Shown piece after piece: positions 2,627 through 51,792 of a stretch of 64,000 nucleotides of DNA (the stretch's first letter is position 1; each line of letters begins with the position of its first letter). This stretch comes from Candidatus Ozemobacteraceae bacterium. GTDB lineage: Bacteria; Muiribacteriota; Ozemobacteria; Ozemobacterales; Ozemobacteraceae. Where the stretch lies: positions 14,410 through 78,409 of the forward strand of contig DAOOQQ010000008.1 in the NCBI GenBank assembly GCA_035388825.1. Direction: 5' to 3'. Made by a program: the position numbers and the translations under genes. A model generated the notes under the pieces. The model had not been told where the DNA came from, did no database searches, and worked only from the letters and a program-made list of their open reading frames with translations.

Positions 2627-2646
2627 GCGGATCTCCGTATCGGGAC

Positions 2647-4008: not shown

Positions 4009-4168
4009 ATCCTCTCCCTCTCCCGATAGATTCTGGTTTCAGGGCTTTTCAGCCTAGCATGGCCTCTCGAAGCTGAGCAACAGCGTGAAGCGTAATTTCG
4101 CTTTCCGAGGGCAACGCCATGCTGTATTCTCAGAAGACTTTCCACGAATCCCCCCGTACAGGAATCTT

Positions 4169-24367: not shown

Positions 24368-24510
24368 GAATTCTCCCCCATTCATCGAGAGTATTGTACC
24401 ATTATACCTGCCGGCCGGATTCTTGTCGCGTCAACCCCGACCCTGATGTACCATGGACTTGTTGCCGCCACCGGCGAGTGCCCGTGAACCAATTCACCCG
24501 GAGAGGGAAG

Positions 24511-26052: not shown

Positions 26053-26061
26053 CGGAAAGGG

Positions 26062-26898: not shown

Positions 26899-26923
26899 GG
26901 CAGCAGCATTCTACCATGGGGCG

Positions 26924-26957
26924 AAAAAAATGGCGCCCGGCTGGTTTACCGGGCGCT
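26924..26957 (-). terminator. rho-independent terminator (minus strand)
   Basis: On the minus strand: GCGCCCGGTAAACCAGCCGGGCGC stem-loop followed by CATTTTTTTCGCC. Confidence 0.5.
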
Positions 26958-27078
26958 CTGGGCTTCTCTCTGGCGGTAGATGCAGGCCTCTGACCTGCAC
27001 GGAGTTTTCAGGATGGTGAACCGGGAACAGGCCTTGCATTCGCGCTGATGAGGGGCCGAAACGATCTCTGCTTTCATC
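26946..27078 (-). CDS. small (43 aa) four-cysteine zinc-ribbon-like protein
   Basis: MKAEIVSAPHQRECKACSRFTILKTPCRSEACIYRQREAQSAR. AGGAGA Shine-Dalgarno 8 nt before the ATG. The TAA stop sits inside a terminator hairpin (GCGCCCGGTAAACCAGCCGGGCGC followed by a T-run on the minus strand, 26931-26957). Confidence 0.4.
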
Positions 27079-27295
27079 ACGAGCTTCTCCTTCCTGGTGG
27101 TCATTCCGAAAAGAACTCTCCTTTCCTGTATCGGCATGTTTGCCGATGTCCTCCAGCGCCCAGCCATACCCGGCATGCGGGGAAAACAAAACCATCAGCC
27201 GGGGGAAATGGGGCTGAACCCGCCGCAATCCGCGTTCTCTCTGTTGCGGAGCCGGGCGTGTTCGGGCATACTGACCTCATGCGAAGGAGTATGCC

Positions 27296-27748
27296 ATGAT
27301 CGTCACCGGACTGCAATCCCTGGCCCGTTACGACGGGTGTCTGCCGGCCCTGGCGCGGGCCCGGGCGTGGCTCGGCGCCCGTGATCTTGCATCGCTGGCC
27401 GTGGGCCGCCATGAGATCGACGGGGAGCGTCTCTTCGTCACGGTGTCGGATTACACGACGAAACGGCCCGGCGAAGGCTTCTGGGAAGCGCACCGCCGGT
27501 ATGTCGACGTCCAGCTCGTCGCCTCGGGCCGCGAGCGGTTCGGCTTCGGCCGTCTCGGGGAAATGCGCCTCGAGTCCCATGATGACGCCCGCGACCTGTC
27601 GGTGCTTTCGGGAGAGGGCGAATTCTTCACGCTCGCCCCGGAGATGGCCGTCATCCTCTTTCCGGAAGACGCCCACATGCCAGGCATGGCGTTGGACGGG
27701 AATCCCGGCCCCGTCCGGAAAATAGTTGTAAAAATAGAAGCCCCATGA
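27296..27748 (+). CDS. YhcH/YjgK/YiaL (DUF386, TabA-like) family protein
   Basis: 150 aa. Family-typical segments: HEIDGERLFVTVSDYTTK..., VDVQLV..G.E, FPEDAHMPG. Confidence 0.7.
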   Translation: MIVTGLQSLARYDGCLPALARARAWLGARDLASLAVGRHEIDGERLFVTVSDYTTKRPGEGFWEAHRRYVDVQLVASGRERFGFGRLGEMRLESHDDARDLSVLSGEGEFFTLAPEMAVILFPEDAHMPGMALDGNPGPVRKIVVKIEAP

Positions 27749-28137
27749 GCCTTGCCAGAGTCGAAGCCTGGGAGGCGAAGCTGCGCGAGGCGTTCGATCA
27801 GGCCGACGCGGAGCTCGAAAAGCGTCATGGCAGCCGTTTTTCCCGGAAGCCCCACCGGCCGGCGCACGGCGAGGGAAGCACGCGGGATGCCGACGGCCTG
27901 TTCGATCTGAGCGTCGGTTATACCGCCGGCTTCGGCTCAGCCCACGGCGAAGGCTACGTGTTCCGGGTGCGTCTGGCGACCTTCGAACCGGTTCCCGGGG
28001 CGGCCCGTGAGGCGATTGAGGCAGAGGCGCTCGATCTCCTGCGGGAGAGGCTGGCCGAGGCCTTCCCGGGCCGCGAACTGAGTATTCTGCGGGAAGGCGA
28101 CCAGTACAAGATCATCGGAGACCTGGGCCTCGATTGA
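27745..28137 (+). CDS. hypothetical protein (C-terminal YKIIGDLGLD motif); partial paralog at 37883
   Basis: 130 aa, overlapping the preceding gene by 4 nt. The last ~40 aa are ~65% identical to the ORF fragment at 37883-38005. Confidence 0.5.
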   Translation: MSLARVEAWEAKLREAFDQADAELEKRHGSRFSRKPHRPAHGEGSTRDADGLFDLSVGYTAGFGSAHGEGYVFRVRLATFEPVPGAAREAIEAEALDLLRERLAEAFPGRELSILREGDQYKIIGDLGLD

Positions 28138-28270
28138 TTCGTGACCGGGGGCTCTTGTTTCCACCTGAAGTCCGTTGTTAGAATGAGAGAGAGGACCCTG
28201 TCCTCTGCTGACCGGCCGAAACGGATCTTTCCTCAACTTCTGCGGTATTGCTTTGTCGGGAGGACGTCGG

Positions 28271-30684
28271 ATGAAGACGTGTATCTTCGGCCGGGGGCGG
28301 ACCCTGCCATCATGTCGCCTCGCAGCCATCGGGATTCTGATGGTTTTCCTGCTTTTCTGTCACGGCCGGGCCTGGGCTCTCAACCAGATCAACAACGGGA
28401 CGTTCCTGAGTGACTGGTCGGGATGGACGATCGACAACCAGGTGCGGCGCGGGTTTCCTCTCGAAGCCTTCTCCTGGGTTGCCACGGAAGGGGCTCCGGT
28501 TGGTTCCATCTTCGGCGGCATGACCACCAACAACCGCCAGGGGGACGGCCTAGTCGAACAGAAGTTCACCACCCCGGCCGGCTTCGTCCGGGCCAGTGCC
28601 TATCTGCAGCACAAGGCCTCCACCAACAAAAAAAGCGGCAAGAACAATCGCACGACCGTGACCCTTCGTCTGGACGGCAGTGCCGCCTACCCGAACGAGA
28701 CGATCATCACGACGTTCCTCAGCCTGATCCAGGATCCCACCGCCGCCTTCCAGACGATGAACTGGACGACGCCGGTCACGCTGCGCCCGGGAACCTCGTA
28801 TCTCTTCCGGCTCTACTGGGATATCAAGACCAATGGCGCTCTCGGGTTCTATTTCGACAACGTCAAGCTGAATATCAGCCCGTCCGGCCTGCGGACGGAC
28901 GACAACGGCACGGACGTGTTTCTGAGCTGGAATCCCAGTGTCGGTGCCGTGGCCCTGAAGGAATACCGGGTGTTCCGGGCGACCACCAGCGGCGGTCCAT
29001 ACACCCAGATCGCCACCACGACGGCGACCACCTATACCGATGCCGCATGGTCTCGGACAATATTTATTACTATGTTGTCCAGGATGTCGAGCTGGTCAGT
29101 GGTGATGTATCCCCCAACAGCGTCGAGGCCGTGTTTTTCAAGATCAAGGTGCGGGACGGTCCCTCGCAGGACATCGCGTATTCCTGGCTGACCGACCGGG
29201 TCGAGGCGAACTGGGACCATCCGAAAGCCTCTCTGCTGCGGTACAAGGTCGCCGTGGGCACGACTCCCGGCGGAAACGACGTCAAGGACTGGACCGATGT
29301 GGGCATGGCGAACACGGTCACGTTCACCGGGCTGAATCTTGCGAGCGGTATGACCTACTACACGACGGTCCAGTCCCAGGATGCGCTCGAGATCGACCAG
29401 TGCAAGGGCTCCAGCAACGGGTTCATGATCCGGACCGATCCCGTGTTCGTCGATACGGCCTCCTCCACGTTTTTCAACAACTCCCGGCTTCAGACGATGA
29501 TCGATTTCACGACCGACCCGGGCTCCATCCGGCCGAAAACCTTTGCCAGCGGGGGCTTCTGGCCTCGCCGCGTCTCCGTGACGGTTCGGGAGCCGGGCAT
29601 CACGGACCGCATCAACGCCCCCTGCCGCATCACCTTCAACATCCCGGCCGGGGCCCCGGCTGCGTTGGCCGAGATTCGCGTCGCCGACGATCAGGGAAGC
29701 AAAGTGCCGCGCGTCGTCGGCGGCACCCTGGCGAACCCGGTGGTGACCTTCCTCGTCAACATGCCCAAGAGCGATTCACGGATCTACTATGTGTATTGGG
29801 GTAATGCCGGGGCTCCGGAGCCGGCCTATGGCTTCTCGAACGGCGTCACCCAGACGGCCGCCCTCCAATATTCGCAGTACTATTCAAGAAAGCTCCTCGC
29901 AGCCGGAATCGAGTCGGTGCCGCTTGCCTTCAATTACGGGTATCGGGAGTCACCGGCCGTCATCTCGGGAGATCCCGATCCGGGAAATACGGCGCCCGAA
30001 AGTTGGGCCGAGGAGTTCGAGTATTTCAATGCGGCCGGCGGATATGCGAACAGCGCCGGCTGGCGGAACGATTGCCGCGGACAGCAGATCACGAACCTGT
30101 TCGGCGGCACCTTCTGGTTTTTCGGAACCAACACCCCGAACTGGTGGATCTGGAGTAACGACCTTCTGTACAACGCGACGGCGAACGCGAACAACTGGAG
30201 CTCCTTCGCGGGGGCTACGGCCCAGAGCTTCGCGACCTTCACGGGAAACGGCCGGTGGCAGGGCGGTCTGATCGCTCCGCTCTGGGTCGATCTCACCTAC
30301 AACGACGATACCGTCATCGATACCCCCGGTGTCTTTCGCGACACGTATGCCAACCGGGAGGTGTTCACCTGGCGGAGCTCGATGAATATCGACCCGACCG
30401 ACGATACCTATGTGTTTCAGACGACCCTGTACCAGACGGGGGATATCGCGCATCGGTACGATTACCTGAGCCCGAGCTCCGTGACGACGGCGAATGCCTC
30501 GGGACATCCCATTCTGAACGATATCAACGCCGTCGGCATTTCGGCGAACAATGGCACCAACTATCTGACGAACACGCCGCTCGAGCTTGGCCTGGGCCAG
30601 ACGCCCTCCTCTTTTTTTCAGTGCGATCGCGCTTTCGACGGCTACTATACGGTCGGGACGATCGAAAATCCGGTGGGCGGCTGA
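28271..30684 (+). pseudogene. exported multidomain protein (CBM4/9-like, FN3-like, DUF2341-like) interrupted by a -1 frameshift near 29036
   Basis: Signal peptide MKTCIFGRGRTLPSCRLAAIGILMVFLLFCHGRAWA after GGGAGGA RBS. Frame 2 reads ...YRVFRATTSGGPYTQIATTTATTYTDAA. The protein-like sequence then continues only in the 28423 frame: (M)VSDNIYYYVVQDVELVSGD, an FN3-type continuation. DUF2341-like segment AEIRVADDQGSKVPRVVGG...SRIYYVYWGNAGAPEP. Ends at TGA 30682 in frame with the next ORF. Confidence 0.6.
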
Positions 30685-30711
30685 TCGAATGTCGCCGATT
30701 TCGATTCGAAG

Positions 30712-33700
30712 GTGTTCGACTCCCGCCTGGATACCCCCGACTGGGTCCAGTTGGAGTACGATTGCACGGGTGATGCGACCGGCCGGCTCCTGTTCTACGT
30801 CCGGACGGGAAATACCCCCCTCCCGGAGCTTGGCGGCTGGAATTCGTGGGTGAATATAGCTACTGCTACGGCTGGTGGCTTTGCGACGATCACCAGTTCC
30901 GATCTTCGATATTGTCAGTACAAGGTCATCTTCCAGCGCAATTCGAACGGCCCCATGCCCGTTCTGAACGAAGTGCGCCTCATCTGCGGCGGTCTGAGCA
31001 TCGAGGCGATCACCACCGACACCCCGGACGGCGTCTGCCAGGGCCAGACCGGCATTCCCGTCGGCGTGACGCTCAAGAACACCTACATCAATCCGGTGTC
31101 GCTGACGAATGCGACCCTCAGCTTCTCGCTCGGGAGCTACACCTTCACGCTCGTGTCCCCAACGTTGCCTGTCACGATCAATCCCGGGGTGGCGACAGCT
31201 GCCACCTTCACCGTGTCGGTTGCCGATGCCTCTCCGGTCGGCATGGCGGTCATCCAGGCTCTGGCCACCGGCACATCCGGACCGAGCACCTTTTTCGATC
31301 GGGACGCCCAGATTCCGGGAAGCTGGCTGGTCCGGAAAAAGGCGACGATGGTGATCAAGGAGGTCCGGACGGTACCCACGGCGGTCAACAAGGGCCAGAA
31401 CGGTATCCCCGTCTTCATCGATCTCGAGAACACCGGCGAAACACCGCTGGTGTTCAACGGGGCGAGCCTGACGTTCTCCCTGGGGTTTTACACCCAGACC
31501 CTGATATCGCCCGCGCTCGGCACCGTCATTCCCGGCCCCGGGAGTCTCACCGTCCAGATTTCGGTCAACGTTCTGTCGAACAGCCCCTCGGGCATCTCGA
31601 CGATCGACGCGACCGCCTCGGGAACGAATGCGTTTTCCGGCAAGCCGGCAAATGCCGCAGGGGCGGTCGTGAAGGATGCCTGGACGATCCAGTCGCCTTC
31701 CGATCTCGTTCTCGTGTCGATCACGGCCTCGTCGACGGTTTATCGCGGCCAGACAGGGATTCCGGTGTTTCTGAACGTCCAGAACATCAAGGAAGCTCCG
31801 GCTTCCTGGACGAGTTCGACCCTGCTTCCCTATTTCACGCTTGGCACCTATGACGCCGTGTATCCCGTCACGCCATTCCCGGTCACGGTTCTGGGAGGCC
31901 AGTCTCTCACGGTTCAGTATGGCGTGGATATCTCGCCGCTTTCGGCAACGGGGACCTCCTCGGTCGATGCGCGTATCGACTGGCTCGACGGCAACATGGG
32001 CGATGCGAAATTCTATGAACGGGCCCTGCTGCCGGCCACCTGGACGATCATGGCCGAGGTCGTGAAAAGCTACAAGGACGCGGCCGGCCTGTATCCGTCG
32101 ACCAGCTTCAACCGCCCCAGCGTCGGTTCGACGATGATCTATGCGAAGGGGGAAAACCTCGCTCCGTTCAAGGATTTCGTCGTCCGGTGGTATGACCCGT
32201 CCGGCACCGAGGTGGCCTCCTCGAATCCGCCGCTGACGGCCCTGGCCTCCGGCACCCTTGCCCACCAGTATGCCATCGGCCCCACGTCCCCCTTCGGCCA
32301 GTGGACGATCCGCGTCACGAACCCGCTCAACACCATCGTTTCCTGTCAGACGTCCTTCGACGTCGTGAACGGGGCGAGCCTCACGGCATCGCTTTCCCTG
32401 CCCCTGACCGTGTCCGTCGGGCAGCCGTTCCAGGCAGTCATGTCCTGTTCGAACGTCGGCGGCGCACGCATCCGGGACGCGTATCCGGGCGTGCTGGCCA
32501 GTTCCGGCACGGGGATCGCCACGCTGACGGCCGGGCCGACGCCGGATTCCCAGGATATTCTGGGGTATACATCGGCGACATTCACCTGGATGTGGCGGGC
32601 GACGAGCGCGGGCACCTTCGTTGCATCGGATGTTGCCTTCGGTGTCGACGCGAACGCGGATCTTGCCATCCGGAGCGCGACGGCGACGAGCAACGTCTGC
32701 GTGATCCAGACGCCGCCGAGCCTTTCCCTGATCTCGCTGACGGCAACCCCGACCCTGGTCTACCGGAACCAGAAGAACATCGAGGTCGAGGCGCGGGTGC
32801 GGAACTCGGGGCAGGCAACGGCCATGCTGACGACCGCCAGCCTGTCGTTCACGCTGGGCTCCTATACGCAGGCGATTGCCACGCCTTCGGTCCTGCCCGC
32901 GTCGATTCCCGGGAACAATGCCGTGGCGACGATCACGTTCATGGTGGACGTGGACTTCGATTCCCCCGAGGGCCTTGCAACGCTGACGTTCGGCATGCGG
33001 GCCTACGATGCCAACGTTCCGGCATCGGTGACGATTCTCGTGCCTGCGTCCCCAAACGACCGGTGGACGATCGGATCGATCGGTATCCAGCTCTCCCGGG
33101 AGACGGATTTCTCCACCGAACAGTATGCGTTCAACCGTGGTCAGGATGTGAAGATCCGTGCGTTCGGCCTGCCGCCGTATTCCACGGGATACAGGTTCAG
33201 GCTGTACAGCTCGACGATTCCCAACACCTCGCCGGCCCCGGCCGGATGGACCGATGTGTCGAACCGCCTGACCGCGACCTCGAAGGGATGGGTGGATTAC
33301 GTCTATACGCTTCCGGCCGGAGCTGCGCTGACGCGCTGGAGTGTCGAGATCGAAACCGACCCTGACAGCAACAGTACGACGCGCGACCAGCTCCTCGCCG
33401 TGAACTATTTCGATGTCCAGACGCCCGGAAACCTGATCGCCAGCCTGACGATCTCGCCCAATCCGGTGTTCGTCGATGACACCGTGACCGTCACGCTCGT
33501 TGCCAGCAATACGACACCGTCGGGAGCGAGCGTCTCCCCGGCGACCCCTTCGGCTCTCGTCCCGACCGCGGCAAGCACGGGAGCCATGTCGTATCAGACG
33601 GGCCCCGCGCCCGCCTCTTCCACCGTGACGGCGCTGGCATCGACCACCTTCGTCTGGACCTACAAGGCGACGGACGACACGGGAACGGTCGGCAGTTACT

Positions 33701-36700
33701 CGCTGACGGCCCAGCTTGCCTGCTCGGTCTACGGTGTGGATGCCAACACAGGAACTCCGATCAACAGCCAGGCGGCCGTTTCCAACGGGCTGAAAATCTA
33801 CCGGCGGGCCATGGCTCTTTCCCCGTCGGCATTCGACCTGGGCTCGCTTGCGCCAGGGGAGACCACTTCGACCATCCCCTTCCAGGTCGGCAACGTCGGC
33901 AACCTCGTCCTGAGCGCCGTGAAGTGGAACAAGGTCGATCTGAACGGCGTTTTCCCCCTGACGACTTCTCACGCCTACGTGACGCTGGCCCCGTCTCCGA
34001 TCGGAGCGATCAATCCCGACGCCAGCGCCGCCGTCTCGATTGCGATGACGGTTCCCTACAATCAGGCTTCCGGCACCTATGCCACGACGATGTCGGTGTA
34101 CGAAGACATGAATGGTAACGGGAATCCCGATTCCATCGAACCGTATAAGATTTTCACCGTCACGGTGAACGTGCTGAGCCGGCCGAAAGTCTTCGTCATC
34201 GAGAATCTGATCGATCTCGGCAACTGGAGCCCCGGTCAGACGACCAATGCGAAGAGTGTGAACCTGTTCAACGGAGGAAACCAGGCGGTCACGAACGTCA
34301 AATTCGTTCAGACGATCGGAAGTGCAACCTTCCTGGCCGTTTCTCCGAATCCCGGAAATCTGACGATCGGGGAATCCCGCGTAGCAAGCGTCTCCGCCGC
34401 GATTCCTGCCGCCGCCACCCAAGGGATTTACGTCGCGACCTGGACGATGTGGGCGGATACGGATGCCGACGGGGCGATCGATGCCGGAGAAGCGAGTGAC
34501 ACGTTCCAGGTGCGGGTCGGTGTCGGCACCAAACAGTTCACTCTGTCCCCTCCCGTGCTTCCTGCGGGGCTCGGGACGCCTTCGACGATCATCTCCGGGC
34601 TCAAGGAGACCATCACCAATACCGGTTCGCTGTCTCTGACGAATCTCAAGGCTTCGCTTCAGGCCCTGCAGGATGGGATGGGCAACTCGATCGCCACAGA
34701 CAATATCTCCATCATTCCGCCTGCTTCGGTCGTGACGACGGGTACCGCGACCGTCGCCCTGTTCGTCCCTCCCGGCATGATCATGGGCGCGTATTCGGGA
34801 GTTCAGACTCTGTACGAAGACTCGAACGGGAACGGCGTGGCCGACCCCGGCGAAGCCTCGGGAACATTCACCCTGACCGTCAGCATTCCCGCCTATCCCG
34901 CGGTTCAGGTGCTCGCTCCGACCGTGGAACTGGGCGATCTTGCCCCGGGAGCGGTTGTGACGGTTCCCTTTGCCTGCCGTAACTCGGGCAATGTCACGCT
35001 GTCCCGGCTCATGTGGACCAAGCTGCCTTTGGTATCTGCAGGCGGCAACACGATCTCGACGCCGAGCTACGATTTCCCGCCCGGAGTGCCGTTTACGGCG
35101 GCTCCCGGAGCCATCTTCACGAGGGATGTGAGGCTGATCGTGAACGTGGCTCAGCCCCCGGGGGATTATACCGGCAGCTCGGCATGGCTGTTCGATGACA
35201 CCGATCTGGGGCTCGATCGTGACACCGGCGAGCCCCAATCCCCGTTCATCATCAAGTGCCGGATCGGCTCTGCGGCTTTGGACATCGAAAACCTGTCGTA
35301 TGCCACGAGCGGCCCGCCCGCCACCTACTCGGCCGAAACGGCGATCAAGTTCCGCAACACCGGCTCGTTGACGATCACGAGTCTCGTGGCGACCTGTTCC
35401 GCTCTTGTCGGGCCGCAAACGATCCCCGCCTCGGCGAGCTTCATCTTTCCGGTTTCCGGTTCTTTCGTGCCGGCGCCCCTCGGCAGCATCCTGGTCGGCG
35501 GCCAGAAGTTCGGGTACTGGCGCGTGTTGGTTCCGGCCAACAGGCTTCCCGGGCTCTACACGGGCACCCTGACCGCCTGGAATGATATCAATGGCGACAA
35601 GCAGCTTCAGAGCTACGAGGCGAGCGACACTTGCGCGATCAATCTGACGGTGACCTCGAACAAGGCGATCAATGTCCTCCAGTCGAATCTCGACCTGGGG
35701 TGGACGACGGAGAACTCCGTCGTCAGCGGCACGATCGAGATCGTGAACACCGGAAACCAGGATCTGACCATGGTCAGAGCCGTCATTGCCACGCTCTCGA
35801 GCGGGATCGACGTGATTCCGGCTTCTTCGATCGTGTATCTTCCGGCCGTGCCGGGTGGATTCACGGTTGGTCAGTCGCAACTGGCGACGATCACGATCAC
35901 GGTGGGCTCTCCGAAGGCGGATGGCACGTATGTCGCAACCCATCGCATCTATGACGATTACAATGGTGCCGACGGGAGTTATAACCCCGGCAATGAGGAA
36001 AACGACACCTTCACGATCACGCTGCGCATCGGCCACAAGAGCGTGTTCGAGACGGATCCGACGAATCCGCCGGTGGATTTCGGCCCGCAGGATCCGGGAG
36101 GGACGGTTGTGAAGAGCTTCACCGCCTACAACGGATCGGCGATTCCGCTGACGAAGCTGCGGTGGAAGAATCTCGTCCCGCTGACGGGGACCGGATATAC
36201 CTTCCCTCTCGCGTCTCTGACCTGGTCACCCGCCGCACCTTTCGGCATTCCGGGAAGCGGGAACATCTCCTGCGCCGCAACCGTCGAACTGGCGAGTTTC
36301 GTTCCACCGGATGTGTATACGGGGGATTCGGCGGTCTGGGAGGATGAGAACGGTGACGGGGTCATCCAGGCTGCCGAGGCCACCGCGAATTTCCAGGTGA
36401 AACTGACGGTGAATCCGCGGCCTCTGATCACGCTTCTGCCCGGAATGGTCGATTTCGGCCGGATCGGCCGGGGCCAGGCCTCGGGCTGGGTCGGAATTTG
36501 CTATTACAACGCCGGCAATGTCCCGCTGAATGCCTTTTCCTGGACGTTCGCGAATGTCGGGGACGGGGCCGGACACACCATCCCCGCGGCGGTGATCGCC
36601 TTCGATCCGTTGTTCAACCCCGATCCAACGCCGGTCGGCTCCTACGGCACGACGACGGTCCGGATCGGCCCGGTCGATCCCCTGCAGGAGCTTGGAGTCT

Positions 36701-37317
36701 ATGATCAGTCGGGGCCGCAGGTGATATCGGCCGGCGGAGGCGTGGTCTCGGATGATTGTCAGTTTCGGTGCGAGATCATCCAGGGCGGGCCGATCGGCCT
36801 CTCGAGTGGGACGGTGTATCAGGAAATCGCGACATTCACGTTCCAGCCTCCCGAGTCCCGGTATGTTCTTTCGGCGTATGTCTGCCCAGGAACCGGCTCC
36901 GCGCGGATTTCCTTCTTCGACACGACGGAGGGGGGGGCGATCGTCTTCCAGCCCTGGGTCGAGATTGATTCGGACGGCCGCGTGCAGGGCAGCACGACGG
37001 GGTCGGGGGAGTTCGGTGTCGTCGAAGCCTGGCCCGCCCAGTTCGGTGCGAACGTTTATATGTGGTATAGAATATATGTGTCGTTCGAATACTACCTCGA
37101 CACGTCGACGGCGAGCAAAACCTACATCATGCTTGGCAACACGTCGCCGGTATCGCCGCCGACGGCTTCCCACGCCGTCTGGTTCGATGGGGTGCAGCTG
37201 GAAAAGCCGGATAATCAGACGCAGAAACGTCCGACGGCGTTCGCCCCCGGGAAAAAGATCGTGTCGCCCTACACCGAACTGGACCTGTCGGGGAAAAAAT
37301 ATTATTTCGAATGGTAA
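30712..37317 (+). CDS. giant repetitive surface protein segment (about 20 CARDB/Ig-like ~100-aa repeats plus a C-terminal CBM-like domain); same frame as the upstream ORF across one TGA
   Basis: 2201 aa. Recurring module [I/V]..GQ[T/N]GIPV.V.L.NTG..P..L..A.L.F.LG.YT..L.SP. Ends ...HAVWFDGVQLEKP...KKYYFEW, paralogous to the C-terminus of the 38051-46777 gene. No separate RBS is visible. GTG 30712 abuts a GAAGG, and the first ATG lies far downstream. The antisense 2028-aa ORF is an artefact. Confidence 0.75.
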   Translation: MFDSRLDTPDWVQLEYDCTGDATGRLLFYVRTGNTPLPELGGWNSWVNIATATAGGFATITSSDLRYCQYKVIFQRNSNGPMPVLNEVRLICGGLSIEAITTDTPDGVCQGQTGIPVGVTLKNTYINPVSLTNATLSFSLGSYTFTLVSPTLPVTINPGVATAATFTVSVADASPVGMAVIQALATGTSGPSTFFDRDAQIPGSWLVRKKATMVIKEVRTVPTAVNKGQNGIPVFIDLENTGETPLVFNGASLTFSLGFYTQTLISPALGTVIPGPGSLTVQISVNVLSNSPSGISTIDATASGTNAFSGKPANAAGAVVKDAWTIQSPSDLVLVSITASSTVYRGQTGIPVFLNVQNIKEAPASWTSSTLLPYFTLGTYDAVYPVTPFPVTVLGGQSLTVQYGVDISPLSATGTSSVDARIDWLDGNMGDAKFYERALLPATWTIMAEVVKSYKDAAGLYPSTSFNRPSVGSTMIYAKGENLAPFKDFVVRWYDPSGTEVASSNPPLTALASGTLAHQYAIGPTSPFGQWTIRVTNPLNTIVSCQTSFDVVNGASLTASLSLPLTVSVGQPFQAVMSCSNVGGARIRDAYPGVLASSGTGIATLTAGPTPDSQDILGYTSATFTWMWRATSAGTFVASDVAFGVDANADLAIRSATATSNVCVIQTPPSLSLISLTATPTLVYRNQKNIEVEARVRNSGQATAMLTTASLSFTLGSYTQAIATPSVLPASIPGNNAVATITFMVDVDFDSPEGLATLTFGMRAYDANVPASVTILVPASPNDRWTIGSIGIQLSRETDFSTEQYAFNRGQDVKIRAFGLPPYSTGYRFRLYSSTIPNTSPAPAGWTDVSNRLTATSKGWVDYVYTLPAGAALTRWSVEIETDPDSNSTTRDQLLAVNYFDVQTPGNLIASLTISPNPVFVDDTVTVTLVASNTTPSGASVSPATPSALVPTAASTGAMSYQTGPAPASSTVTALASTTFVWTYKATDDTGTVGSYSLTAQLACSVYGVDANTGTPINSQAAVSNGLKIYRRAMALSPSAFDLGSLAPGETTSTIPFQVGNVGNLVLSAVKWNKVDLNGVFPLTTSHAYVTLAPSPIGAINPDASAAVSIAMTVPYNQASGTYATTMSVYEDMNGNGNPDSIEPYKIFTVTVNVLSRPKVFVIENLIDLGNWSPGQTTNAKSVNLFNGGNQAVTNVKFVQTIGSATFLAVSPNPGNLTIGESRVASVSAAIPAAATQGIYVATWTMWADTDADGAIDAGEASDTFQVRVGVGTKQFTLSPPVLPAGLGTPSTIISGLKETITNTGSLSLTNLKASLQALQDGMGNSIATDNISIIPPASVVTTGTATVALFVPPGMIMGAYSGVQTLYEDSNGNGVADPGEASGTFTLTVSIPAYPAVQVLAPTVELGDLAPGAVVTVPFACRNSGNVTLSRLMWTKLPLVSAGGNTISTPSYDFPPGVPFTAAPGAIFTRDVRLIVNVAQPPGDYTGSSAWLFDDTDLGLDRDTGEPQSPFIIKCRIGSAALDIENLSYATSGPPATYSAETAIKFRNTGSLTITSLVATCSALVGPQTIPASASFIFPVSGSFVPAPLGSILVGGQKFGYWRVLVPANRLPGLYTGTLTAWNDINGDKQLQSYEASDTCAINLTVTSNKAINVLQSNLDLGWTTENSVVSGTIEIVNTGNQDLTMVRAVIATLSSGIDVIPASSIVYLPAVPGGFTVGQSQLATITITVGSPKADGTYVATHRIYDDYNGADGSYNPGNEENDTFTITLRIGHKSVFETDPTNPPVDFGPQDPGGTVVKSFTAYNGSAIPLTKLRWKNLVPLTGTGYTFPLASLTWSPAAPFGIPGSGNISCAATVELASFVPPDVYTGDSAVWEDENGDGVIQAAEATANFQVKLTVNPRPLITLLPGMVDFGRIGRGQASGWVGICYYNAGNVPLNAFSWTFANVGDGAGHTIPAAVIAFDPLFNPDPTPVGSYGTTTVRIGPVDPLQELGVYDQSGPQVISAGGGVVSDDCQFRCEIIQGGPIGLSSGTVYQEIATFTFQPPESRYVLSAYVCPGTGSARISFFDTTEGGAIVFQPWVEIDSDGRVQGSTTGSGEFGVVEAWPAQFGANVYMWYRIYVSFEYYLDTSTASKTYIMLGNTSPVSPPTASHAVWFDGVQLEKPDNQTQKRPTAFAPGKKIVSPYTELDLSGKKYYFEW

Positions 37318-37799: not shown

Positions 37800-37882
37800 C
37801 GGTCTTCTCGCGGTGATATTCAGGTCATGATAGCAGAAATACGCACCATGATTGAAATATTTGATAAACAATAGAAACCTGC

Positions 37883-38008
37883 GTGGCCATCGAGCAAAAA
37901 GCGATCGCCTTGGTGGCGAAACACCTGGCGAAGGAATTTCCCGGCCGAGAACTTCGGATCGTTTGCGAAGGGGGTCTCTACAAGATCATTGGGGATCTTG
38001 ACCTTGGA
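37883..38008 (+). pseudogene. partial duplicate of the 27745-28137 gene (C-terminal ~41 aa only)
   Basis: MAIEQKAIALVAKHLAKEFPGRELRIVCEGGLYKIIGDLDL versus AIEAEALDLLRERLAEAFPGRELSILREGDQYKIIGDLGLD. The downstream remainder of the ORF overlaps the giant minus-strand gene and looks non-coding. Confidence 0.4.
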
Positions 38009-38050
38009 AAGCTCGAACGGCATCCCTTGATCGGGATGCCGAATAATATG

Positions 38051-41000
38051 TTACCAAGTATAATAAGGCGTTCCCCGGAACAGGCCGTTCTGCCGGGTCG
38101 GCGTGACGACACCCCGTTCGGGGGTCCAGGGAGTTGCCTCCTGCGCCGGTGAAAGCCCGGGAAGGGTGACGGCTTTTTCCAGTTGGATTCCGTCGAACAT
38201 CACGGCCTCGCCCGTCTTCGTACTGAAAAGCCCGAGTTCCACGGTGAAGCTTCCCAGAAGCGCGCTCGAGGTCGAGGTGAAGGCGAACGAGTACCGCTGC
38301 CAGCGGTTGATGGAGATATTGATTTCTTCGGCTCGGATCCCGTTGGTGCCATACTCGTGCGTCGTGGAGGCCGTGCCGCACCATTCGGTGACCCGCAGGA
38401 GGACCCGTGAGGTCGAAGCGGGATTGGGATCGACATGGAGGGGAGCCGTGGCGAGAAGATAGCTGCTGAAGACATACGCCGTGCTCGTCGCGATTTTGTC
38501 CGGCCCCGTGATGGTCTGATACACGACTTCGGGGATGCCGGCCGGTCCCGTGACCTGAACCGGGATCTGAACGGTGGGACTGGCTTCGTTCTGGAAGAGG
38601 GCATCCCGGATCGTCATGGTTCCGACGTGGAAGCCGATCGGCGTGGCGGGGTCGATCGTGAGACTGCATGTGCCGTTGACCGTTCCGCCGATTGCCAGGG
38701 TGGGCATGCCGAACAGGACATTTGCTGCGGAAAAGGGAATGATGCCCGGGCCGACGAGATTGGTACCGACGGCGTCGAGGGCGATGGGGTATGGGCCGGT
38801 GTTCGTCAGGGTGAACCCGAAGCTCACGGTGCTTCCCTGGGCTGCGGAAATCGGGGTGAAGACGGATGGCGTGATCGTGAATTTCGTCGGGGGGACTTCC
38901 ACATACACCATCAAAGGGGCGGTTGCGGCCGGGTGATCGAGGTCGATCACCGTCTGTGTCGCCGTATAATACCGGCCGGCGGGCTGCATGGACGGGATGG
39001 TGACGGACAGCGATGCATCGACCGTTTCCATCACCTGGATGTTGACGGAGGGAGGCGTCATCCTCAGGTTCGAGGCCGGAATCGTGAATGCCCCGAGGAT
39101 TGGGGCTGCCGTGACCATCTGCACGTTCGTCAGGGGATTGTCACAGATGCTGGTGATGTGGAAACTCCTCGTGGCCGTCGTGTTGCGGGGCGCAACGATG
39201 ATCAGGGGATTGGGGGCCGTGACCATTTCGTAGGACAGGGCGCCGCCGGAAGTGACGATCAGGGTGAGAACGAACGAGTCCTGGGGTTCGAGCGGTTCGC
39301 GGACGCCGTTGCCGTTCAGATCCTCGTAGACCCACTGTTCTCCCGAAAACGTTCCGGAGAGGGTCGTCGGCGTCGTGTGAATACTTACCGATATATCACG
39401 CGTGACGCCCGGATTCAGGGCGGGTGGGGCGACCTGGTTGGGCAGGAAGCGGATGTCGGGCGTCCCGATGGCACCAACCGGCTGCTTGTCGATCTTCAGG
39501 TTCGACAGGAAGACGGTGCCTGTATTGCGGACCGTGAATGTCTGGGTTGCCGTGTCGTTGCCCTTGGCGATGTTGCCGAAATTGATGGTGGTGGCAAGGA
39601 CGTCGACGGATTTCGCGCCCACGGAGATCTTGACAGGGAGCTTCCAGAAAGATTCTCCCGCATCGAGGCCCGGGGTTCCGCCCGTTTCTTCCCAGAACGT
39701 GACCTCTCCGGAATAGTTTCCGGTCGGGGTGGTCGTCAGCGTGGTGACGGTGAAGGTGGCGACCTGGGAGGAAGGACCGGTCCAGGGAAGGGCCCAGGGA
39801 GAGGGCGGGACCTGGAGGCTGAGCTGCCCCGTGGGAATCGAGTTTCCGCCATCTTTCAGGGGGGAGAGGAGGTATTTCAGGTTGTTGATCTGCTTGTTTC
39901 CGACATTGAATGCCGTGAAGGTCTTCGCAATGGTTTCGCCCTTGTTGATGCCCCCCAGATCGAGAGGAGAGGCTTCGAACCGCAGCGCCAGCTTTTCCTT
40001 TACGAGGAGGTGAAGGGTGATGGTGTCGTATTTCTCGGGGGACGTGTAGGTCTCATCGGGAAGATCGTCCTGAAATACGCGCAACGGGCCAGAATACAAG
40101 CCCGGCCCCTGGTTTTCGGGAATGGCGACCTGGATGGAGGGAGCCCACGTGACTCCTGCCGTGAGCAGGCCGATCGGATCGGGATACGAGTAGATCTGGA
40201 AGAACGGCGTGAGTGCCGGATACGGGGCTTGGATGAGATTCGGCTTTTCGTAGAGGAGCCGGGTCAGGGTGCGCTCGCCGATATTTTTCACGCTGAAGAT
40301 GACGGGAGGGGTTTTCTCGCCGGGGGCCGCTGAGCCGAGATCCAGCGGGGACGAGTCGAGGATGTCCACCCCATCCACGCCGACCTCGAGGTACCCCGTG
40401 ACCGTGTCGGATGCTTCCCCGGCGTCGATGACGGTGTCGTTGTCCAGGTCGTTCCAGAGTGTCCAGCTGCCCCAGTAGGTGCCGGGTGTGGCGGCGAGCG
40501 GAATTGGATTGATCGAAAGGGTTGCGACGGTGGCCGGTGGGGTGAGATCCCAGCCGTTTCCGCCGTTTCCCGGATTGAATGCCGGTTGTGTCCCGGGGGG
40601 GGATACGGCGAATGTCGTCACCCCGTTGCTCAGTGGGCTGAGACACTTCCATTTCAAGTTTTGGCAGTCGAGATTGCCGATGTTGACGACATGTACCCCG
40701 ATCTCGACGGTTTCGTTCGGCACACCTGCGCCGAAATTGGCGATCTCCTCGACGATGGCGAAGTTGCGTGAATCGAGAATGTTCGTCGATATCGTGATCG
40801 TATCCCTGGCTTCTCCTGCATCCAGGAGGCCGTTTCCGTTTCGGTCGTTGAAGATCGTCTGGACTCCCGAATACGCTGGCCCGGGGTTGCGGTCCTGATC
40901 GAACGGGATGTCGACGTAGAAGACGAAGGTGGTGAACAGGCCCGTTCCCACCGTGGGGAGCGGTGCCGGTGCGATCGTGACGTTCGTTGCATCGATCGTC

Positions 41001-44000
41001 CGGCCGCTGACGGTGAGGGAGGACGAAACGAACTGGAGGCGTTCCAGCGGAAGCCCGCCGGTGTTCGATAACCGCAATGCCGGAGAAAAGGTGACTTGGC
41101 CGGGGGATACATTGGGAAGCGTGACGGTCGCCGAAACGATATCCAGGGACTCGTTCGGACCCACGATGAGCGAAAGGCTGACGGCGGAAGAAGCCTCGCC
41201 GGGATCGGCAAGCGTGTCGACATCCTTGTCGTTGAGAAACGTGCCCGTTCCAACATAGGTTCCCGGGGTCTGCGCGTTGGGGATCTGCACCGAAAAGTTC
41301 ACCCAGCGGGCATCTCCGGGACTCATCAGGCCGAAAATGACGGGCTGAAGGCTTGCCGAAGAACTCGGGATCGTGTTTCCCAGATACTTCAGATCCGAGA
41401 TGACGAAGCGGACCTTGATCTGATCCATGTTCCCGATGTTCGTCACCATGAGGGATGCCGTGGCGGTGCGGTCGTTGGCGAGCCAGCTTCCCAGGAAAAG
41501 AGAGGTGTGGTTTGCCCGCAGCAGTTCCGTCGGGGGAACGACGACGCGCATCAGAAACTGCGCGATGGCATCTCCGATCGATGCCCCGTCTTGGTTGGTG
41601 TCCTCGAAAACGAATTGGTAGGCGGTATAGGTGCCCGGCTCCTGCATCGGTGGAATCGTGACGCGCAGCCCCCCCGTCGTGGAGTCGCCGACGGCGAGGG
41701 CGCCGATCATATCCGGTGTTCCGACGCTGCCGTCGGGCGGGATGAAGTAGGGATCCGAGGCAAGATTGTGAAACTCCCACTTCAGATGCTCGAGATCGAG
41801 ATTTCCGGTGTTCGTGATGGTTACGGAACGACTCGGACTGGTTTGCCCGGGACCCACCGTTCCCATGTCGACCAACCCGGGAGTGACCTGGAGCGCCTTC
41901 TGGGAGATGCTGACCCCCGTCGAACGGGTATCCGGCACATGACAGTCCTGGCCGTCGAGAAGGGAGACGCCCGAAGCGAGAACCCCGTTTTCGACCGGCC
42001 CGTGGAGATAGAAGCGTGTGCCGGCACTTGTCATCTGAGTCGGTGTGTAAAGCGCCGTGAATGAAACCGTTTCCCCGCAGGAAAGGGTGTTCGAGGCTGG
42101 CTGGGGATTCTGGATGCAGACGCCGTTTCCCGTACAGTCGCCTCCGGGGGCTTTTTCCCAGATGTGCGGAATGATGCGGAGGCGCTCGTGGTTTTCGGAC
42201 TGCCCCGTGAGATACACGTCGTCGAGCAGGAGGTGATCCATTCCCCCGGCATCCGCCTGGAGTCGGAAACGGATCCGGACATTCGAATTGCCCAACAGAT
42301 CTTCGGGAAGAGCGATGAGCAGGTCTTTCCAGATGCCTATTCCCAGCTGGGCCGTCTCCGTGAACAGACTCGTCCAGGTGACGCCGTCGGGGGAGGTCTC
42401 CACGACGAAAACCGGGGCACCTGCGAAGACCGTGGAATACCTCGCGTGGAGGGAAACGCCGGTCATGTCGCGGAGATTGACCACCCGCGTGAGGGTTTCG
42501 GCTCCGGCAGCATTGTAGGAGAGATGGACGAACTGGCTGGGGGGATTCGCCGCGTAGGCTGCCGCCGTGTCGAGGATTTCGGTGCCCGGTCCTGCCGTCG
42601 TCCAGGCGGACGAGAAGATGCCGGCTTCGAACAGGTCGCCGAACACCGAGGAGGTGACGGACAAGGCGGCGGTCATGGGGGTTCCGAGACTGCTCGTTGC
42701 CGGCGAAAGCTCGAAGGAGGGCATCGGAAAAGGTTTTTCCAAGATTCGGGCCGACCCCGTCGCAAGGTGGGTGGCCCCGTTCCTGACCTGAATCGTGCCG
42801 AGGCCATACCGGAACGCCGCCGTCGGTGTATAGGTCTGGGTGAGGCTCCCGCCGGCGTTGGTCGAGACCGGCAAGGAGGCGATGGGGGCCGCGTCGGGGG
42901 GGAACGCATCATACCAGCACAAGGAAAGCGTTTGGAGAGAGGGGAAGCCTGTTCCCAAGACCGTGATCGGCTGGCCCCGTGCGAATCGGCTACAGGGAAT
43001 CGTGGCCGCACCATCGGAAAACGTCTGCAGAGACGAGGTCGACACCGTCCACTGGTCGTTCAGCGTGGCTCCGACGATACTCTGGACGCCGGTCGCGACG
43101 ACGCTCGTCGCCGTTGCGGCGGCATCGATCGTCGTCAGCCCGGCTGCGGCGGCAACCGAAACGTCCACGCTCAGGGTTGCGATCAAGGTCGTGACCGGAA
43201 TCGTTTCTTCCCCCAAGCCGATCGCGTTCGGCGCATTCATGAACAGCCGGATGTCGTCGAAACACAGGCGATTGTTGTTGGTCGACCAACCGTACCAGAA
43301 GTTGGCCTCGAACTGGATCTGCCATCCGGGGCCGGTCTGATACCCCGACAAATCGTAGGTTTCCTCGTGCCAAAGGTCATCGTTGGGGCCGTTGGCCGGG
43401 TAAAAAATCAACTCGTTCCAGGCGGCTCCGTCATACAGTTTGACTCGCCCCCAGTCATAATTCGTTCCCGCGGTCGTTCCCGTGCAGCCATTGTCGAAAT
43501 ATCGATGATAGGTGAGTTGAAGGTGGTGATATCCGCTCGTGTCGATCGACCGGGCGGCTTGGGCGAACTTGTTCAGGTTGAAGGTGTTCCCGAAGTCCAG
43601 ACCGCGGAAACAGAGAGACTGTGCTGCGAGAAGCGGCGACGAATCCGGACCGAGTTGAAGGGGAGAGGTATCGTTATTGTTTCTGGAGATATAAATGCCA
43701 TTGACGCCGGCATCGTTCGTCGCCCAGCCGGGGAAATTGGGTTGACTGATGTCTGCGAGCAGGGAGAAGCCGTTTCCGTAGACCGAGCCTTCCCAATCCT
43801 CCCAGAAAATGTAGCAATTCTTCCGGTTCGCGGCGAGATCGGCACTCGTAGCGGCGGTGTTCCCATAGTAGACGTAATATCCTTCGTCGCGGCCATACGG
43901 CAAAATCTCGTTCCGGATCTTGAAGATAGATTTATTCGAGCTGATATAATGCCGATCGAGTTGCACCCAGCCCGTTCCTTCGATCCACTGCATCAAGCGC

Positions 44001-46777: not shown

Positions 46778-47406
46778 GGTACGACTCCTGCCGTGTGTCC
46801 AAGCCGGCGTGTCAGGCGCTGCCAGGTATCGAACGCGGATGTGTCCAACGGCTTTCGCTTCAGGTGGGTCCGGAGAAGGGACACGGCCGAGGCTGGCTCG
46901 TTCGATTGTTCGAAGAAGGTGATGAGGCGCATGGCATGACGATCGAAAAACATCGGATCGGCCGAGGCTGCATTCGTGAAAAGGTTCCAGACATCGGATG
47001 GCGAGCTGGCAGCCATCGCTGCCAGAATGTCCGATTCGGCAGCTCGGCGTGCCGTTGCGGTCGGGAGGGTGGAGAGGAGATAGGCGAACCTCGGATCGTC
47101 GGGGCATAACGCCCTGGCCCGCAGAAGCAGAGGCTCGGCCGTGCCGATGTTCCCTGCGTCGATCAGGTGTGCCGCTTCGATGAACAGGGCTTCGGCCATC
47201 TTCGCTTCATGGAGGTGGGGGGAAGAACGGGGAACGACGGTGGCAGATGGCGTGGATGGAGGTCGAGGTCGGATCTGGAATGGCGAGGGAAGCGGAGGGG
47301 GATTCGTCCGGAAGAGAGGAATGAGAAACTTGGCGAAGAGACAGCAGCCCAGGAGGAAGAGGAGCACCACGATGATCGTGTCCAGGATGCGGGCATATCG
47401 TTGCAT
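46774..47406 (-). CDS. membrane-anchored TPR-like protein, first-neighbour partner of giant protein gene
   Basis: Start MQRYARILDTIIVVLLFLLGCCLFAKFLI (TM helix) after AAGGA RBS. Pro-rich linker, then helical TPR-like region. Translationally coupled (ATGA) to the giant gene. The track ORF 46774..47691 starts further upstream. Confidence 0.55.
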   Translation of the reverse strand: MQRYARILDTIIVVLLFLLGCCLFAKFLIPLFRTNPPPLPSPFQIRPRPPSTPSATVVPRSSPHLHEAKMAEALFIEAAHLIDAGNIGTAEPLLLRARALCPDDPRFAYLLSTLPTATARRAAESDILAAMAASSPSDVWNLFTNAASADPMFFDRHAMRLITFFEQSNEPASAVSLLRTHLKRKPLDTSAFDTWQRLTRRLGHTAGVVP

Positions 47407-47441
47407 ATCCTTGGTCGGGTCAGAGGGATGCCCTGTCGAGT

Positions 47442-48035
47442 TCATTTGCTGACCAATAGCAGAGCATGTCCGCCCTGTCCGAAAATCGATCCGAAGCGGT
47501 TTGCCAGGTTGGGGGCGGCGTTGTCGCCCGTCGTTTTTCCATTCCATTGGTTGGACGTGACGAGAGCGATACCGCAGGTGAGGCCATCCGCCCGCCATCG
47601 TGTCTGTGACAGATCCTGGACTTCGAAGCTGCCACTCGCGACCAGATTTCGCGTCGGGTACCAGAAAATCATTCCGGGTTGGGAGCCCCATCGGAAGGCG
47701 GGAACGAGAGGATCGCTCTGGACCAGGGGGAGATAGCCGCTTGCAACGAGGGAGCTGAGATAGACGTCGAACGCCAACGTGCGGAGATCCTGGCGATGGT
47801 CGGGGATCGACCAGATCTGCTGGTAGAGAGACTGGAGATGAGGGCTGCCTGCGGCTGCGTCGAGCAGCATCGCCTGGCGCATGGCTTCGAGTCGCCCGGC
47901 CAGCTCGACTTCACGCTCGCGCTGTACGGTCGTGGCGTAGCTGGGAATCAACTGAATGGAAATGACCCCGGCGATCATGATCGATACCAGAAGCAGGAGC
48001 AGGACCGAGCCCGTGGTGATACGGCGAAGATGCAT
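47442..48035 (-). CDS. hypothetical single-pass membrane protein (first gene of 3-gene operon)
   Basis: MHLRRITTGSVLLLLLVSIMIAGVISIQLIP... A TM helix, then ~170 aa periplasmic region. 36 nt upstream of the TPR-like gene. AT-rich putative promoter region at 48060-48160. Confidence 0.45.
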   Translation of the reverse strand: MHLRRITTGSVLLLLLVSIMIAGVISIQLIPSYATTVQREREVELAGRLEAMRQAMLLDAAAGSPHLQSLYQQIWSIPDHRQDLRTLAFDVYLSSLVASGYLPLVQSDPLVPAFRWGSQPGMIFWYPTRNLVASGSFEVQDLSQTRWRADGLTCGIALVTSNQWNGKTTGDNAAPNLANRFGSIFGQGGHALLLVSK

Positions 48036-48158
48036 GCGATCCCTCTTCTCCGGCATCGGGACGGGGCGGGAGAGTCCACCGGCACGATGCCGTCATTCTG
48101 TCATGCAAAGTATAACATTTCCTCGAATGATATGAAAAGTATGTATTTTAATAATAAA

Positions 48159-48192
48159 GCCCCCGATCCGTCAGGATCGGGGGCTTTTTATC
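48159..48192. terminator. bidirectional rho-independent terminator
   Basis: AAAGCCCCCGATCCGTCAGGATCGGGGGCTTTTTA. 9-bp GC stem with A/T runs on both sides. Terminates the M16 peptidase gene (minus strand) and precedes the AT-rich promoter region of the 48035 operon. Confidence 0.6.
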
Positions 48193-48199
48193 GAAGGGA

Positions 48200-51744: not shown

Positions 51745-51792
51745 CTAATATAGAACGAGCCGGTCTGGCCTGCTCGTGAATGGAAGAACGAG

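What the first reader, a model, noticed from the sequence alone, without database searches (positions are those of the whole stretch)
30676..30720. Single in-frame TGA separates the 800-aa and 2,200-aa ORFs
ORF 28423-30684 and ORF 30712-37317 are in the same reading frame. Only one TGA (30682-30684) lies between them. The downstream ORF has no convincing independent start: GTG 30712 directly abuts GAAGG, and the first ATG is far inside. Combined with the upstream frameshift, this reconstructs one ~3,000-aa protein. Its architecture (signal peptide, DUF2341 and CBM modules, repeat array, CBM-like C-terminus) mirrors the intact 2,908-aa paralog on the other strand. Options are pseudogenisation, sequencing error, stop-codon readthrough or recoding. 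A weak hairpin (TCGAAT...ATTCGA) follows the TGA.
Basis: partly seen in the sequence, partly recalled or inferred. Interest (0 to 1): 0.65.

Follow-up and report, generated by a model that had tools for sequence, protein, structure and literature searches.

The report
Broken giant surface-protein gene (pseudogene)
The in-frame TGA is a conserved tryptophan codon (TGG) mutated to a stop inside a roughly 3,000-residue surface-protein gene that also lost one base upstream, so this is an ordinary, recently broken gene and not recoding.

Summary
TGA 30682-30684 is the only stop between two same-frame ORFs, and a frameshift lies upstream at 29045/29046. Together the pieces rebuild one gene of about 3,015 aa (28271-37317, + strand).

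The closest relative is a Ca. Ozemobacteraceae MAG (L003), 89% identical in DNA and syntenic. It carries this gene as one intact 3,019-aa ORF. At the TGA it has TGG (Trp), and at the frameshift it has one extra G. Four more distant Riflebacteria orthologues are also single ORFs with Trp in that column.

TGA is the normal terminator here, ending 28 of 34 window genes. There is no SECIS or Rfam match. The downstream fold is no better than shuffled sequence and also forms in the TGG-bearing relative. No in-frame start after the TGA has a Shine-Dalgarno site at working distance.

All three pieces have dN/dS of 0.07-0.10, and the window lineage shows no rate excess (56 vs 52 changes). The lesions are therefore very recent, or they are consensus errors. 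Error is less likely. Every other frame-breaking indel against the relative is intergenic, and the other genes scanned show full-length domain matches.

Verdict: ordinary nonsense plus frameshift pseudogenisation. Interest is low.

The parts
28271..29045 (+). Piece A of the broken giant gene. It has ATG 28271 with a GGAGG Shine-Dalgarno site 7 nt upstream, a signal peptide (…FLLFCHGRAWA/LNQ), and the N-terminal module with the first half of an fn3-like domain. In the window this frame runs on out of frame to TGA 29189-29191.
29045..29046 (+). Site of the 1-nt deletion. The window reads GCCG-CATG where the sister MAG L003 reads GCCGGCATG (Ala-Gly-Met). There is no homopolymer or short-repeat tract and no slippery heptamer.
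29047..30681 (+). Piece B, 545 codons of true coding sequence in frame 1. dN/dS against L003 is 0.070.
30682..30684 (+). In-frame TGA. The orthologous codon is TGG (Trp) in L003, and the column is Trp in L004-L007. A single G-to-A transition explains it.
30685..37317 (+). Piece C, 2,210 codons plus TAA. It holds Ig-like repeat arrays (sub-threshold MG2 match, HYDIN/VesB-like Ig) and the C-terminal module. dN/dS against L003 is 0.100. It has no start codon with a Shine-Dalgarno site and no signal peptide of its own.
27745..28137 (+). Small 130-aa gene just upstream of the giant gene. It is conserved in L003 at 91% aa identity in the same position.
38051..46777 (-). Intact, convergent giant paralogue. 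It is 2,908 aa from ATG 46777, or 3,018 aa from the first ATG at 47107. It is about 25% identical to the broken gene in the repeat and C-terminal regions and contains DUF2341.
37880..48209 (.). A 10.3-kb segment present in the window but absent at the syntenic site of L003. It carries the intact paralogue and a 216-aa gene with a hydrophobic N-terminus. Its left edge (37886-38005) holds a 40-aa remnant of a second copy of the small upstream gene.

Best explanation
The TGA is a plain nonsense mutation. A conserved tryptophan codon (TGG) became TGA through one G-to-A transition. It sits inside a single ancestral gene of about 3,015 aa that encodes a secreted or cell-surface protein of a Ca. Ozemobacteraceae (Riflebacteria) bacterium. 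The same gene also lost one G about 1.6 kb upstream, which shifts the frame. With both lesions, the ribosome starting at ATG 28271 would make a 306-aa product: signal peptide, 258 native residues and 48 out-of-frame residues. It would stop at TGA 29189-29191. Pieces B and C have no start signal or signal peptide, so they are not expected to be made or exported. The gene is therefore a very young pseudogene. An intact, distantly related giant gene lies next to it on a 10.3-kb segment that the sister species lacks, and it may cover the lost function. Shown: the lesions, the intact orthologues, the Trp ancestry, normal use of TGA as a stop, and the absence of recoding signals. Inferred: that the lesions exist in the cells and are not assembly artefacts, that the gene is non-functional, and that the neighbouring gene compensates.
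For: The sister MAG L003 is 89.4% identical in DNA and collinear over window 23252-37879. It has one intact 3,019-aa ORF. At the TGA it reads TGG, and at 29045 it has one extra G. Orthologues in L004-L007 are single ORFs of 2,986-3,437 aa, and all have Trp in the TGA column. More distant P0001 and P0002 read through with Gln and Asn.

TGA ends 28 of 34 complete genes in the window. Pfam domains finish just before those stops. There is no Rfam match, no tRNA, and no significant structure after the TGA. A similar fold forms in L003, which has TGG. No in-frame ATG, GTG or TTG within 500 nt after the TGA has a Shine-Dalgarno site at a working distance. True starts in the window do have one, such as GGAGG before 28271 and AAGGAG before 27296.

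The assembly is otherwise clean. Over about 19 kb aligned to L003, every other indel that is not a multiple of 3 lies in non-coding DNA. The other window genes scanned give full-length domain matches. Two lesions concentrated in one gene fit neutral decay after a first hit.
Against: No reads are available, so a consensus or strain-mixture error at one or both sites cannot be excluded. There is no sign of relaxed selection. dN/dS is 0.066, 0.070 and 0.100 for pieces A, B and C. The window lineage has no excess of amino-acid changes, 56 vs 52, p = 0.77. Apart from the two lesions, the only indels in 9 kb are two in-frame 3-nt ones. This fits a very recent event. By rough inference it covers less than a few percent of the branch to the sister species. 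It fits an artefact or a still-expressed gene equally well. No second sample of the same species was found to check the alleles.
Confidence: 0.72

Rival explanations
1. Assembly or consensus artefact. The organism has an intact 3,015-aa gene, and the G-to-A change and the missing G are errors or chimeric calls from a mixed-strain population.
For: All three pieces look fully constrained (dN/dS 0.07-0.10). There is no lineage acceleration. Repairing one base at each site restores an ORF collinear with L003. The source appears to be an uncultured lineage known only from MAGs.
Against: The assembly shows no other coding frameshift or nonsense difference across about 19 kb aligned to L003. Homopolymer lengths in coding sequence agree between the two assemblies. 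The other genes scanned give full-length Pfam matches. Neither lesion lies in a homopolymer. GCCGGC occurs 121 times and GATC 614 times elsewhere in the window, so there is no systematic motif error. Two independent errors landing in one gene with none elsewhere is unlikely. By my rough estimate, two random hits in this window share a gene about 6% of the time.
Confidence: 0.2
2. Leaky termination. Trp-tRNA(CCA) reads the UGA as a near-cognate codon and restores the ancestral Trp, so some full-length protein is still made.
For: The ancestral residue is Trp. In E. coli K-12 reporters, UGA is read through at about 2-4% by Trp-tRNATrp competing with RF2 (PMC10570021). Bacterial tRNATrp variants that read UGA well are known (PMC13092985). 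The downstream piece shows no decay.
Against: The upstream 1-nt deletion ends translation at 29189-29191, before any ribosome reaches the UGA. The stop is not conserved in any orthologue. TGA is the main terminator in this genome, which would not tolerate efficient readthrough. There is no stimulatory structure. The base after the stop is U, which gives strong termination in E. coli (my own knowledge, Poole et al. 1995).
Confidence: 0.04
3. The gene is now a working split gene. Pieces B and/or C are translated separately by reinitiation at GTG 30712 or ATG 29047.
For: In-frame start codons exist close to both lesions: ATG 29047 (the ancestral Met codon) and GTG 30712.
Against: Neither has a Shine-Dalgarno site at a usable distance; GAAG abuts GTG 30712. 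Neither fragment has a signal peptide, so an extracellular Ig-repeat protein could not be exported. All seven homologues compared read straight through both sites. The frameshift cuts an fn3-like domain: the match is model positions 3-51 as found and 3-69 after repair, both below threshold. No Pfam domain is detected at the TGA site.
Confidence: 0.03
4. Selenocysteine insertion at the UGA, or a UGA codon reassignment (genetic code 4 or 25).
For: An in-frame UGA with a small hairpin 3' of it.
Against: Homologues have Trp, Gln or Asn at this column, never Cys. There is no SECIS or any Rfam hit. The fold has z = -1.29 and also forms in the TGG-bearing relative. TGA terminates 28 of 34 genes, and no other gene needs an in-frame TGA. 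The residue lies in a Gly-rich surface-protein linker, not a redox site.
Confidence: 0.01

Closest known systems
Nonsense and frameshift pseudogenes of very large surface or adhesin genes, for example shdA, ratB and sivH in Salmonella Typhi (my own knowledge, Parkhill et al. 2001)
   Same: A multi-kilobase gene for a secreted, repeat-rich surface protein is disabled by point lesions while close relatives keep it intact. More than one lesion sits in the same gene, and neighbouring genes are untouched.
   Different: Here the organism is an uncultured Ca. Ozemobacteraceae bacterium. The decay is so recent that no relaxation of selection can be measured. No read-level or population data confirm the alleles.
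Near-cognate UGA readthrough by Trp-tRNATrp in E. coli (PMC10570021), and 4-bp anticodon-stem tRNATrp variants (PMC13092985)
   Same: The stop is UGA and the ancestral amino acid is Trp, which is the residue such readthrough would insert.
   Different: The stop is not conserved and there is no leaky context or stimulatory structure. An upstream frameshift pre-empts it. At most this is background noise, not a programmed event.
Bacterial selenoprotein genes, for example fdhF, with UGA plus an adjacent SECIS hairpin
   Same: An in-frame UGA inside a long conserved ORF.
   Different: There is no SECIS. Homologues carry Trp, not Cys or Sec. The setting is a structural surface protein, not a redox active site.

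Membership tests
Recent unitary pseudogene | Orthologues in related genomes are single intact ORFs | tested here: met
   L003 3,019 aa; L004 2,986 aa; L005 3,415 aa; L006 3,437 aa; L007 3,414 aa
Recent unitary pseudogene | Disabling lesions can be identified against the orthologue | tested here: met
   TGG to TGA at 30682-30684 and a 1-nt deletion at 29045/29046. These are the only frame-breaking differences in coding DNA.
Recent unitary pseudogene | Downstream fragments lack their own translation start and export signals | tested here: met
   No Shine-Dalgarno site at a usable distance before any in-frame start within 500 nt after the TGA or at 29047. The only signal peptide is at the N-terminus of piece A.
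Recent unitary pseudogene | Relaxed selection: raised dN/dS, extra lesions, lineage acceleration | tested here: not met
   dN/dS 0.066, 0.070 and 0.100; 56 vs 52 lineage-specific changes, p = 0.77. This limits the age to very recent and leaves the artefact rival open.
Recent unitary pseudogene | Lesions verified in reads or in a second isolate | not testable with these tools
   No reads. No same-species sequence in the metagenome or genome collections.
Selenoprotein (Sec-UGA recoding) | SECIS stem-loop immediately 3' of the UGA | tested here: not met
   No Rfam hit even at E <= 10. Fold z = -1.29. A similar fold forms in the TGG-bearing L003.
Selenoprotein (Sec-UGA recoding) | Cys or Sec at the aligned position in homologues | tested here: not met
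   Trp in 5 homologues, Gln in 1, Asn in 1
Selenoprotein (Sec-UGA recoding) | selA, selB, selC and selD present in the genome | not testable with these tools
   Only 64 kb is available, and the window holds no tRNA gene.
UGA sense-codon reassignment (genetic code 4 or 25) | UGA is not used as a terminator, and in-frame UGAs are spread over many genes | tested here: not met
   28 of 34 complete genes end in TGA, with Pfam domains ending just before it. This is the only in-frame TGA in the genes of the window.
Programmed stop-codon readthrough | The stop codon is conserved at that position across orthologues | tested here: not met
   All seven homologues have a sense codon there.
Programmed stop-codon readthrough | A stimulatory 3' context or structure | tested here: not met
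   The context is UGA-U. The structure is no better than shuffled sequence.
Programmed ribosomal frameshift (upstream site) | The frameshift is conserved in orthologues and has a slippery motif | tested here: not met
   Orthologues are in one frame. The sequence GATGCCGCATGGTC has no X XXY YYZ heptamer or +1 shift motif.

The most novel reading that the evidence does not exclude
The lesions are real, yet the gene is still expressed at a low, regulated level. The UGA would be decoded as its ancestral Trp by near-cognate or variant tRNATrp, and the 1-nt deletion would be bypassed. This would give stochastic, phase-like production of a giant surface protein, which could explain why no decay is detectable downstream.
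Probability: 0.03. Interest if true: 0.5.

Novelty: already known. Interest (0 to 1): 0.08.

Why it matters
It matters little beyond annotation. The three ORFs 28271-29191, 28423-30684 and 30712-37317 should be annotated as one disrupted gene (pseudogene), not as three proteins and not as a recoding candidate. There is a small evolutionary point. In this Ca. Ozemobacteraceae lineage, the ancestral giant surface-protein gene has just been knocked out. It lies next to a 10.3-kb segment that carries a different, intact giant gene and that the sister species lacks. This pattern fits turnover or replacement of giant surface proteins, but that reading is an inference only.

Tried and rejected
- **Paralogue alignment.** I aligned the junction to the intact paralogue on the other strand. 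It is only about 25% identical and does not cover the junction, so it gives no information there.
- **Same-species search in metagenomes.** A degenerate DNA pattern across the TGA and a protein-seeded scan both found nothing.
- **Protein database search.** It returned only three homologues and not the window's own proteins, so the source is not in that collection.
- **P0003.** Its scrambled C-terminus looked like a second frameshifted orthologue. Its contig is 99.97% identical to L004 for 5,750 nt and then diverges at the contig end, so this is a chimeric end and not a lesion.
- **Systematic motif errors.** I checked the GCCGGC motif at the deletion and the GATC created by the TGA. Both motifs are abundant and intact elsewhere in the window.
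- **RNA elements.** Rfam found nothing at gathering thresholds over the whole window or at relaxed thresholds over 30550-30850.
- **Pfam at relaxed thresholds.** No DUF2341 or CBM turned up in the broken gene.
- **Literature on Ozemobacter and Riflebacteria.** Nothing relevant to these genes.
- **Homology between the two small upstream genes** (27745-28137 and 47445-48092). None found.
Full report
**1. Observation**

TGA lies at 30682-30684. ORF 28423-30684 and ORF 30712-37317 share frame 1. The nine codons between the TGA and GTG 30712 contain no other stop.

An upstream frameshift is also real. The true N-terminus is in frame 2. It starts at ATG 28271, which has GGAGG 7 nt upstream, and it carries the signal peptide MKTCIFGRGRTLPSCRLAAIGILMVFLLFCHGRAWA/LNQ. 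The conserved reading continues in frame 1 from about 29046.

So the '800-aa ORF' holds only 545 codons of genuine coding sequence (29047-30681). Its first ~208 codons are an out-of-frame read over the real frame-2 sequence. Repairing both sites gives one protein of about 3,015 aa.

**2. Organism and genetic code**

The window is 60-68% GC. Its closest relative in the genome collection is a Ca. Ozemobacteraceae MAG (DATCTT010000032.1, locus L003). Further relatives are Ca. Ozemobacter sibiricus and Rifleibacterium/Riflebacteria MAGs.

Of 34 complete genes recognised by their codon-position GC pattern, 28 end in TGA, 4 in TAA and 2 in TAG. Pfam domains finish just before those TGAs. Examples are DUF386 1-145/145 ending at residue 155 of 157, M20 ending at 556 of 560, and S1 ending at 771 of 783. 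TGA is therefore the normal terminator, and a code reassignment is excluded.

**3. Orthologue comparison (the decisive test)**

L003 aligns collinearly with window 23252-37879 at about 89% DNA identity. It carries the gene as one intact ORF of 3,019 aa. The two lesion sites compare as follows:

- At the window's TGA, L003 reads GGT GGC TGG TCG AAT (Gly-Gly-Trp-Ser-Asn).
- At the frameshift, L003 reads GAT GCC GGC ATG GTT, where the window reads GAT GCC G-C ATG GTC.
- The window therefore differs by one G-to-A transition (TGG to TGA) and by the loss of one G.

More distant orthologues in L004-L007 are single ORFs of 2,986-3,437 aa. All have Trp in the TGA column (…GGW/GTW…). The still more distant P0001 and P0002 have Gln and Asn there. 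All read straight through the frameshift site.

The codon is therefore an ancestrally conserved Trp codon. It is not a conserved stop and not a Cys/Sec position.

**4. Recoding signals**

- Rfam gives no hit at gathering thresholds across the window.
- Even at E <= 10, nothing relevant appears in 30550-30850.
- ARAGORN finds no tRNA in the window.
- The 85 nt starting at 30676 fold to -30.2 kcal/mol. Shuffles average -26.4 +/- 2.9, giving z = -1.29, and 18 of 200 shuffles fold at least as well.
- The orthologous stretch of L003, which has TGG, folds similarly (z = -0.84).
It is a by-product of the Ser-Asn…Asp-Ser codons.
- The base after the stop is U. No slippery motif lies at the deletion site.
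- Any ribosome starting at 28271 would stop at TGA 29189-29191, long before reaching 30682.

**5. Independent translation of the fragments**

In-frame ATG, GTG or TTG codons lie at 30712, 30751, 30850, 30955 and further downstream. None has a Shine-Dalgarno site at a working distance; GAAG directly abuts GTG 30712.

True starts in this window do have such sites, namely GGAGG before 28271 and AAGGAG before 27296. Pieces B and C also lack signal peptides.

The deletion cuts an fn3-like domain. The Pfam fn3 match covers model positions 3-51 as found and 3-69 after repair. Both matches are below the curated threshold.

**6. Real mutation or artefact?**

I could not test this on reads. Two metagenome scans found no second sample of the species.

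Indirect evidence favours real lesions:

- Across about 19 kb aligned to L003, every other indel that is not a multiple of 3 lies between genes or in the unaligned 5' leaders. Within the giant gene, the only other indels are two in-frame 3-nt ones.
- The other window genes scanned give full-length domain matches.
- Neither lesion is in a homopolymer.
- The motifs involved (GCCGGC, GATC) are abundant and intact elsewhere in the window.
- Two errors confined to one gene in an otherwise clean assembly is improbable. A second neutral hit in an already dead 9-kb gene is expected.

**7. Age of the lesions**

dN/dS against L003 is 0.066 for piece A, 0.070 for piece B and 0.100 for piece C, with dS of 0.35-0.51. 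I polarised the amino-acid differences using L004-L007 as outgroups. That gives 56 changes on the window branch and 52 on the L003 branch (p = 0.77).

No relaxation of selection is detectable. If the lesions are real, inactivation is very recent. By rough inference it covers at most a few percent of the branch to the sister species. The same data are what an artefact would give, which is why I keep that rival at about 0.2.

**8. Surroundings**

Just upstream is a small 130-aa gene (27745-28137), conserved in L003.

Downstream, window 37880-48209 is absent from L003, where the flanks are only about 57 bp apart. This segment carries:

- The intact convergent giant paralogue. It contains DUF2341 and HYDIN/VesB-like Ig domains.
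- A 216-aa gene with a hydrophobic N-terminus.
- At its left edge (37886-38005), a 40-aa remnant of a second copy of the small upstream gene (60% identity, E = 2e-9).

The paralogue is only about 25% identical to the broken gene, and only in the repeat and C-terminal regions. It may make the ancestral gene dispensable. That is inference.

**9. Comparison with known cases and verdict**

This is the standard signature of a young pseudogene: a large surface-protein gene knocked out by a nonsense mutation plus a frameshift. It fails the tested defining features of Sec recoding, codon reassignment, programmed readthrough and programmed frameshifting (see the membership table).

Background UGA readthrough by Trp-tRNATrp runs at about 2-4% in E. 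coli K-12 reporters (PMC10570021). It would insert the ancestral residue, but the upstream frameshift pre-empts it.

Novelty: already known. Interest: low.

Noticed in passing
window 37880-48209: A 10.3-kb segment is absent at the syntenic site of the sister MAG L003. It carries the intact 2,908-aa giant gene on the minus strand and a 216-aa gene with a hydrophobic N-terminus (47445-48092). It is either an insertion in the window lineage or a deletion in L003.
   Followed up: partly
window 37886-38005 (+): A 40-aa remnant of the C-terminus of the small gene 27745-28137 (60% identity, E = 2e-9). It sits between the two convergent giant genes at the edge of the lineage-specific segment. It hints at a past duplication or rearrangement of a 'small gene plus giant gene' module.
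   Followed up: partly
L007 5360-5362 (JANJUX010000046.1): Another Riflebacteria MAG has a neighbouring giant gene split into ORFs of 1,695 and 1,276 aa by a single in-frame TAG (…GSVTP*LLQKT…). In L005 the gene at the equivalent upstream position is one 2,987-aa ORF. This is a second example of a giant gene interrupted by a nonsense codon in this group.
   Followed up: partly
L001 10001-13123 (ENA ERZ21831104 ctg97266l): Homologue P0001 is only 1,040 aa. It ends abruptly inside the first Ig-like repeats and overlaps an opposite-strand sigma-54 activator gene. It looks like a truncated remnant of the same gene family.
   Followed up: no
L002 5750-6039 (JGI 3300038964): This contig is 99.97% identical to Ca. 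Ozemobacter sibiricus L004 for 5,750 nt and then diverges for its last ~290 nt. That gives protein P0003 a scrambled C-terminus. The contig end is probably chimeric.
   Followed up: yes
window 1-6864: Four adjacent radical-SAM genes, two on each strand (the two minus-strand ones also have B12-binding domains), with a 463-aa gene of no Pfam family between the pairs. This is possibly a peptide- or lipid-modification cluster.
   Followed up: no
window 51754-52335 (+): An MsrB/SelR-domain gene with no in-frame TGA. It is a Cys-type enzyme, not a selenoprotein form.
   Followed up: yes
window 26062-26910 (-) and 59253-60791 (-): Two ankyrin-repeat proteins lie within one 64-kb bacterial window.
   Followed up: no
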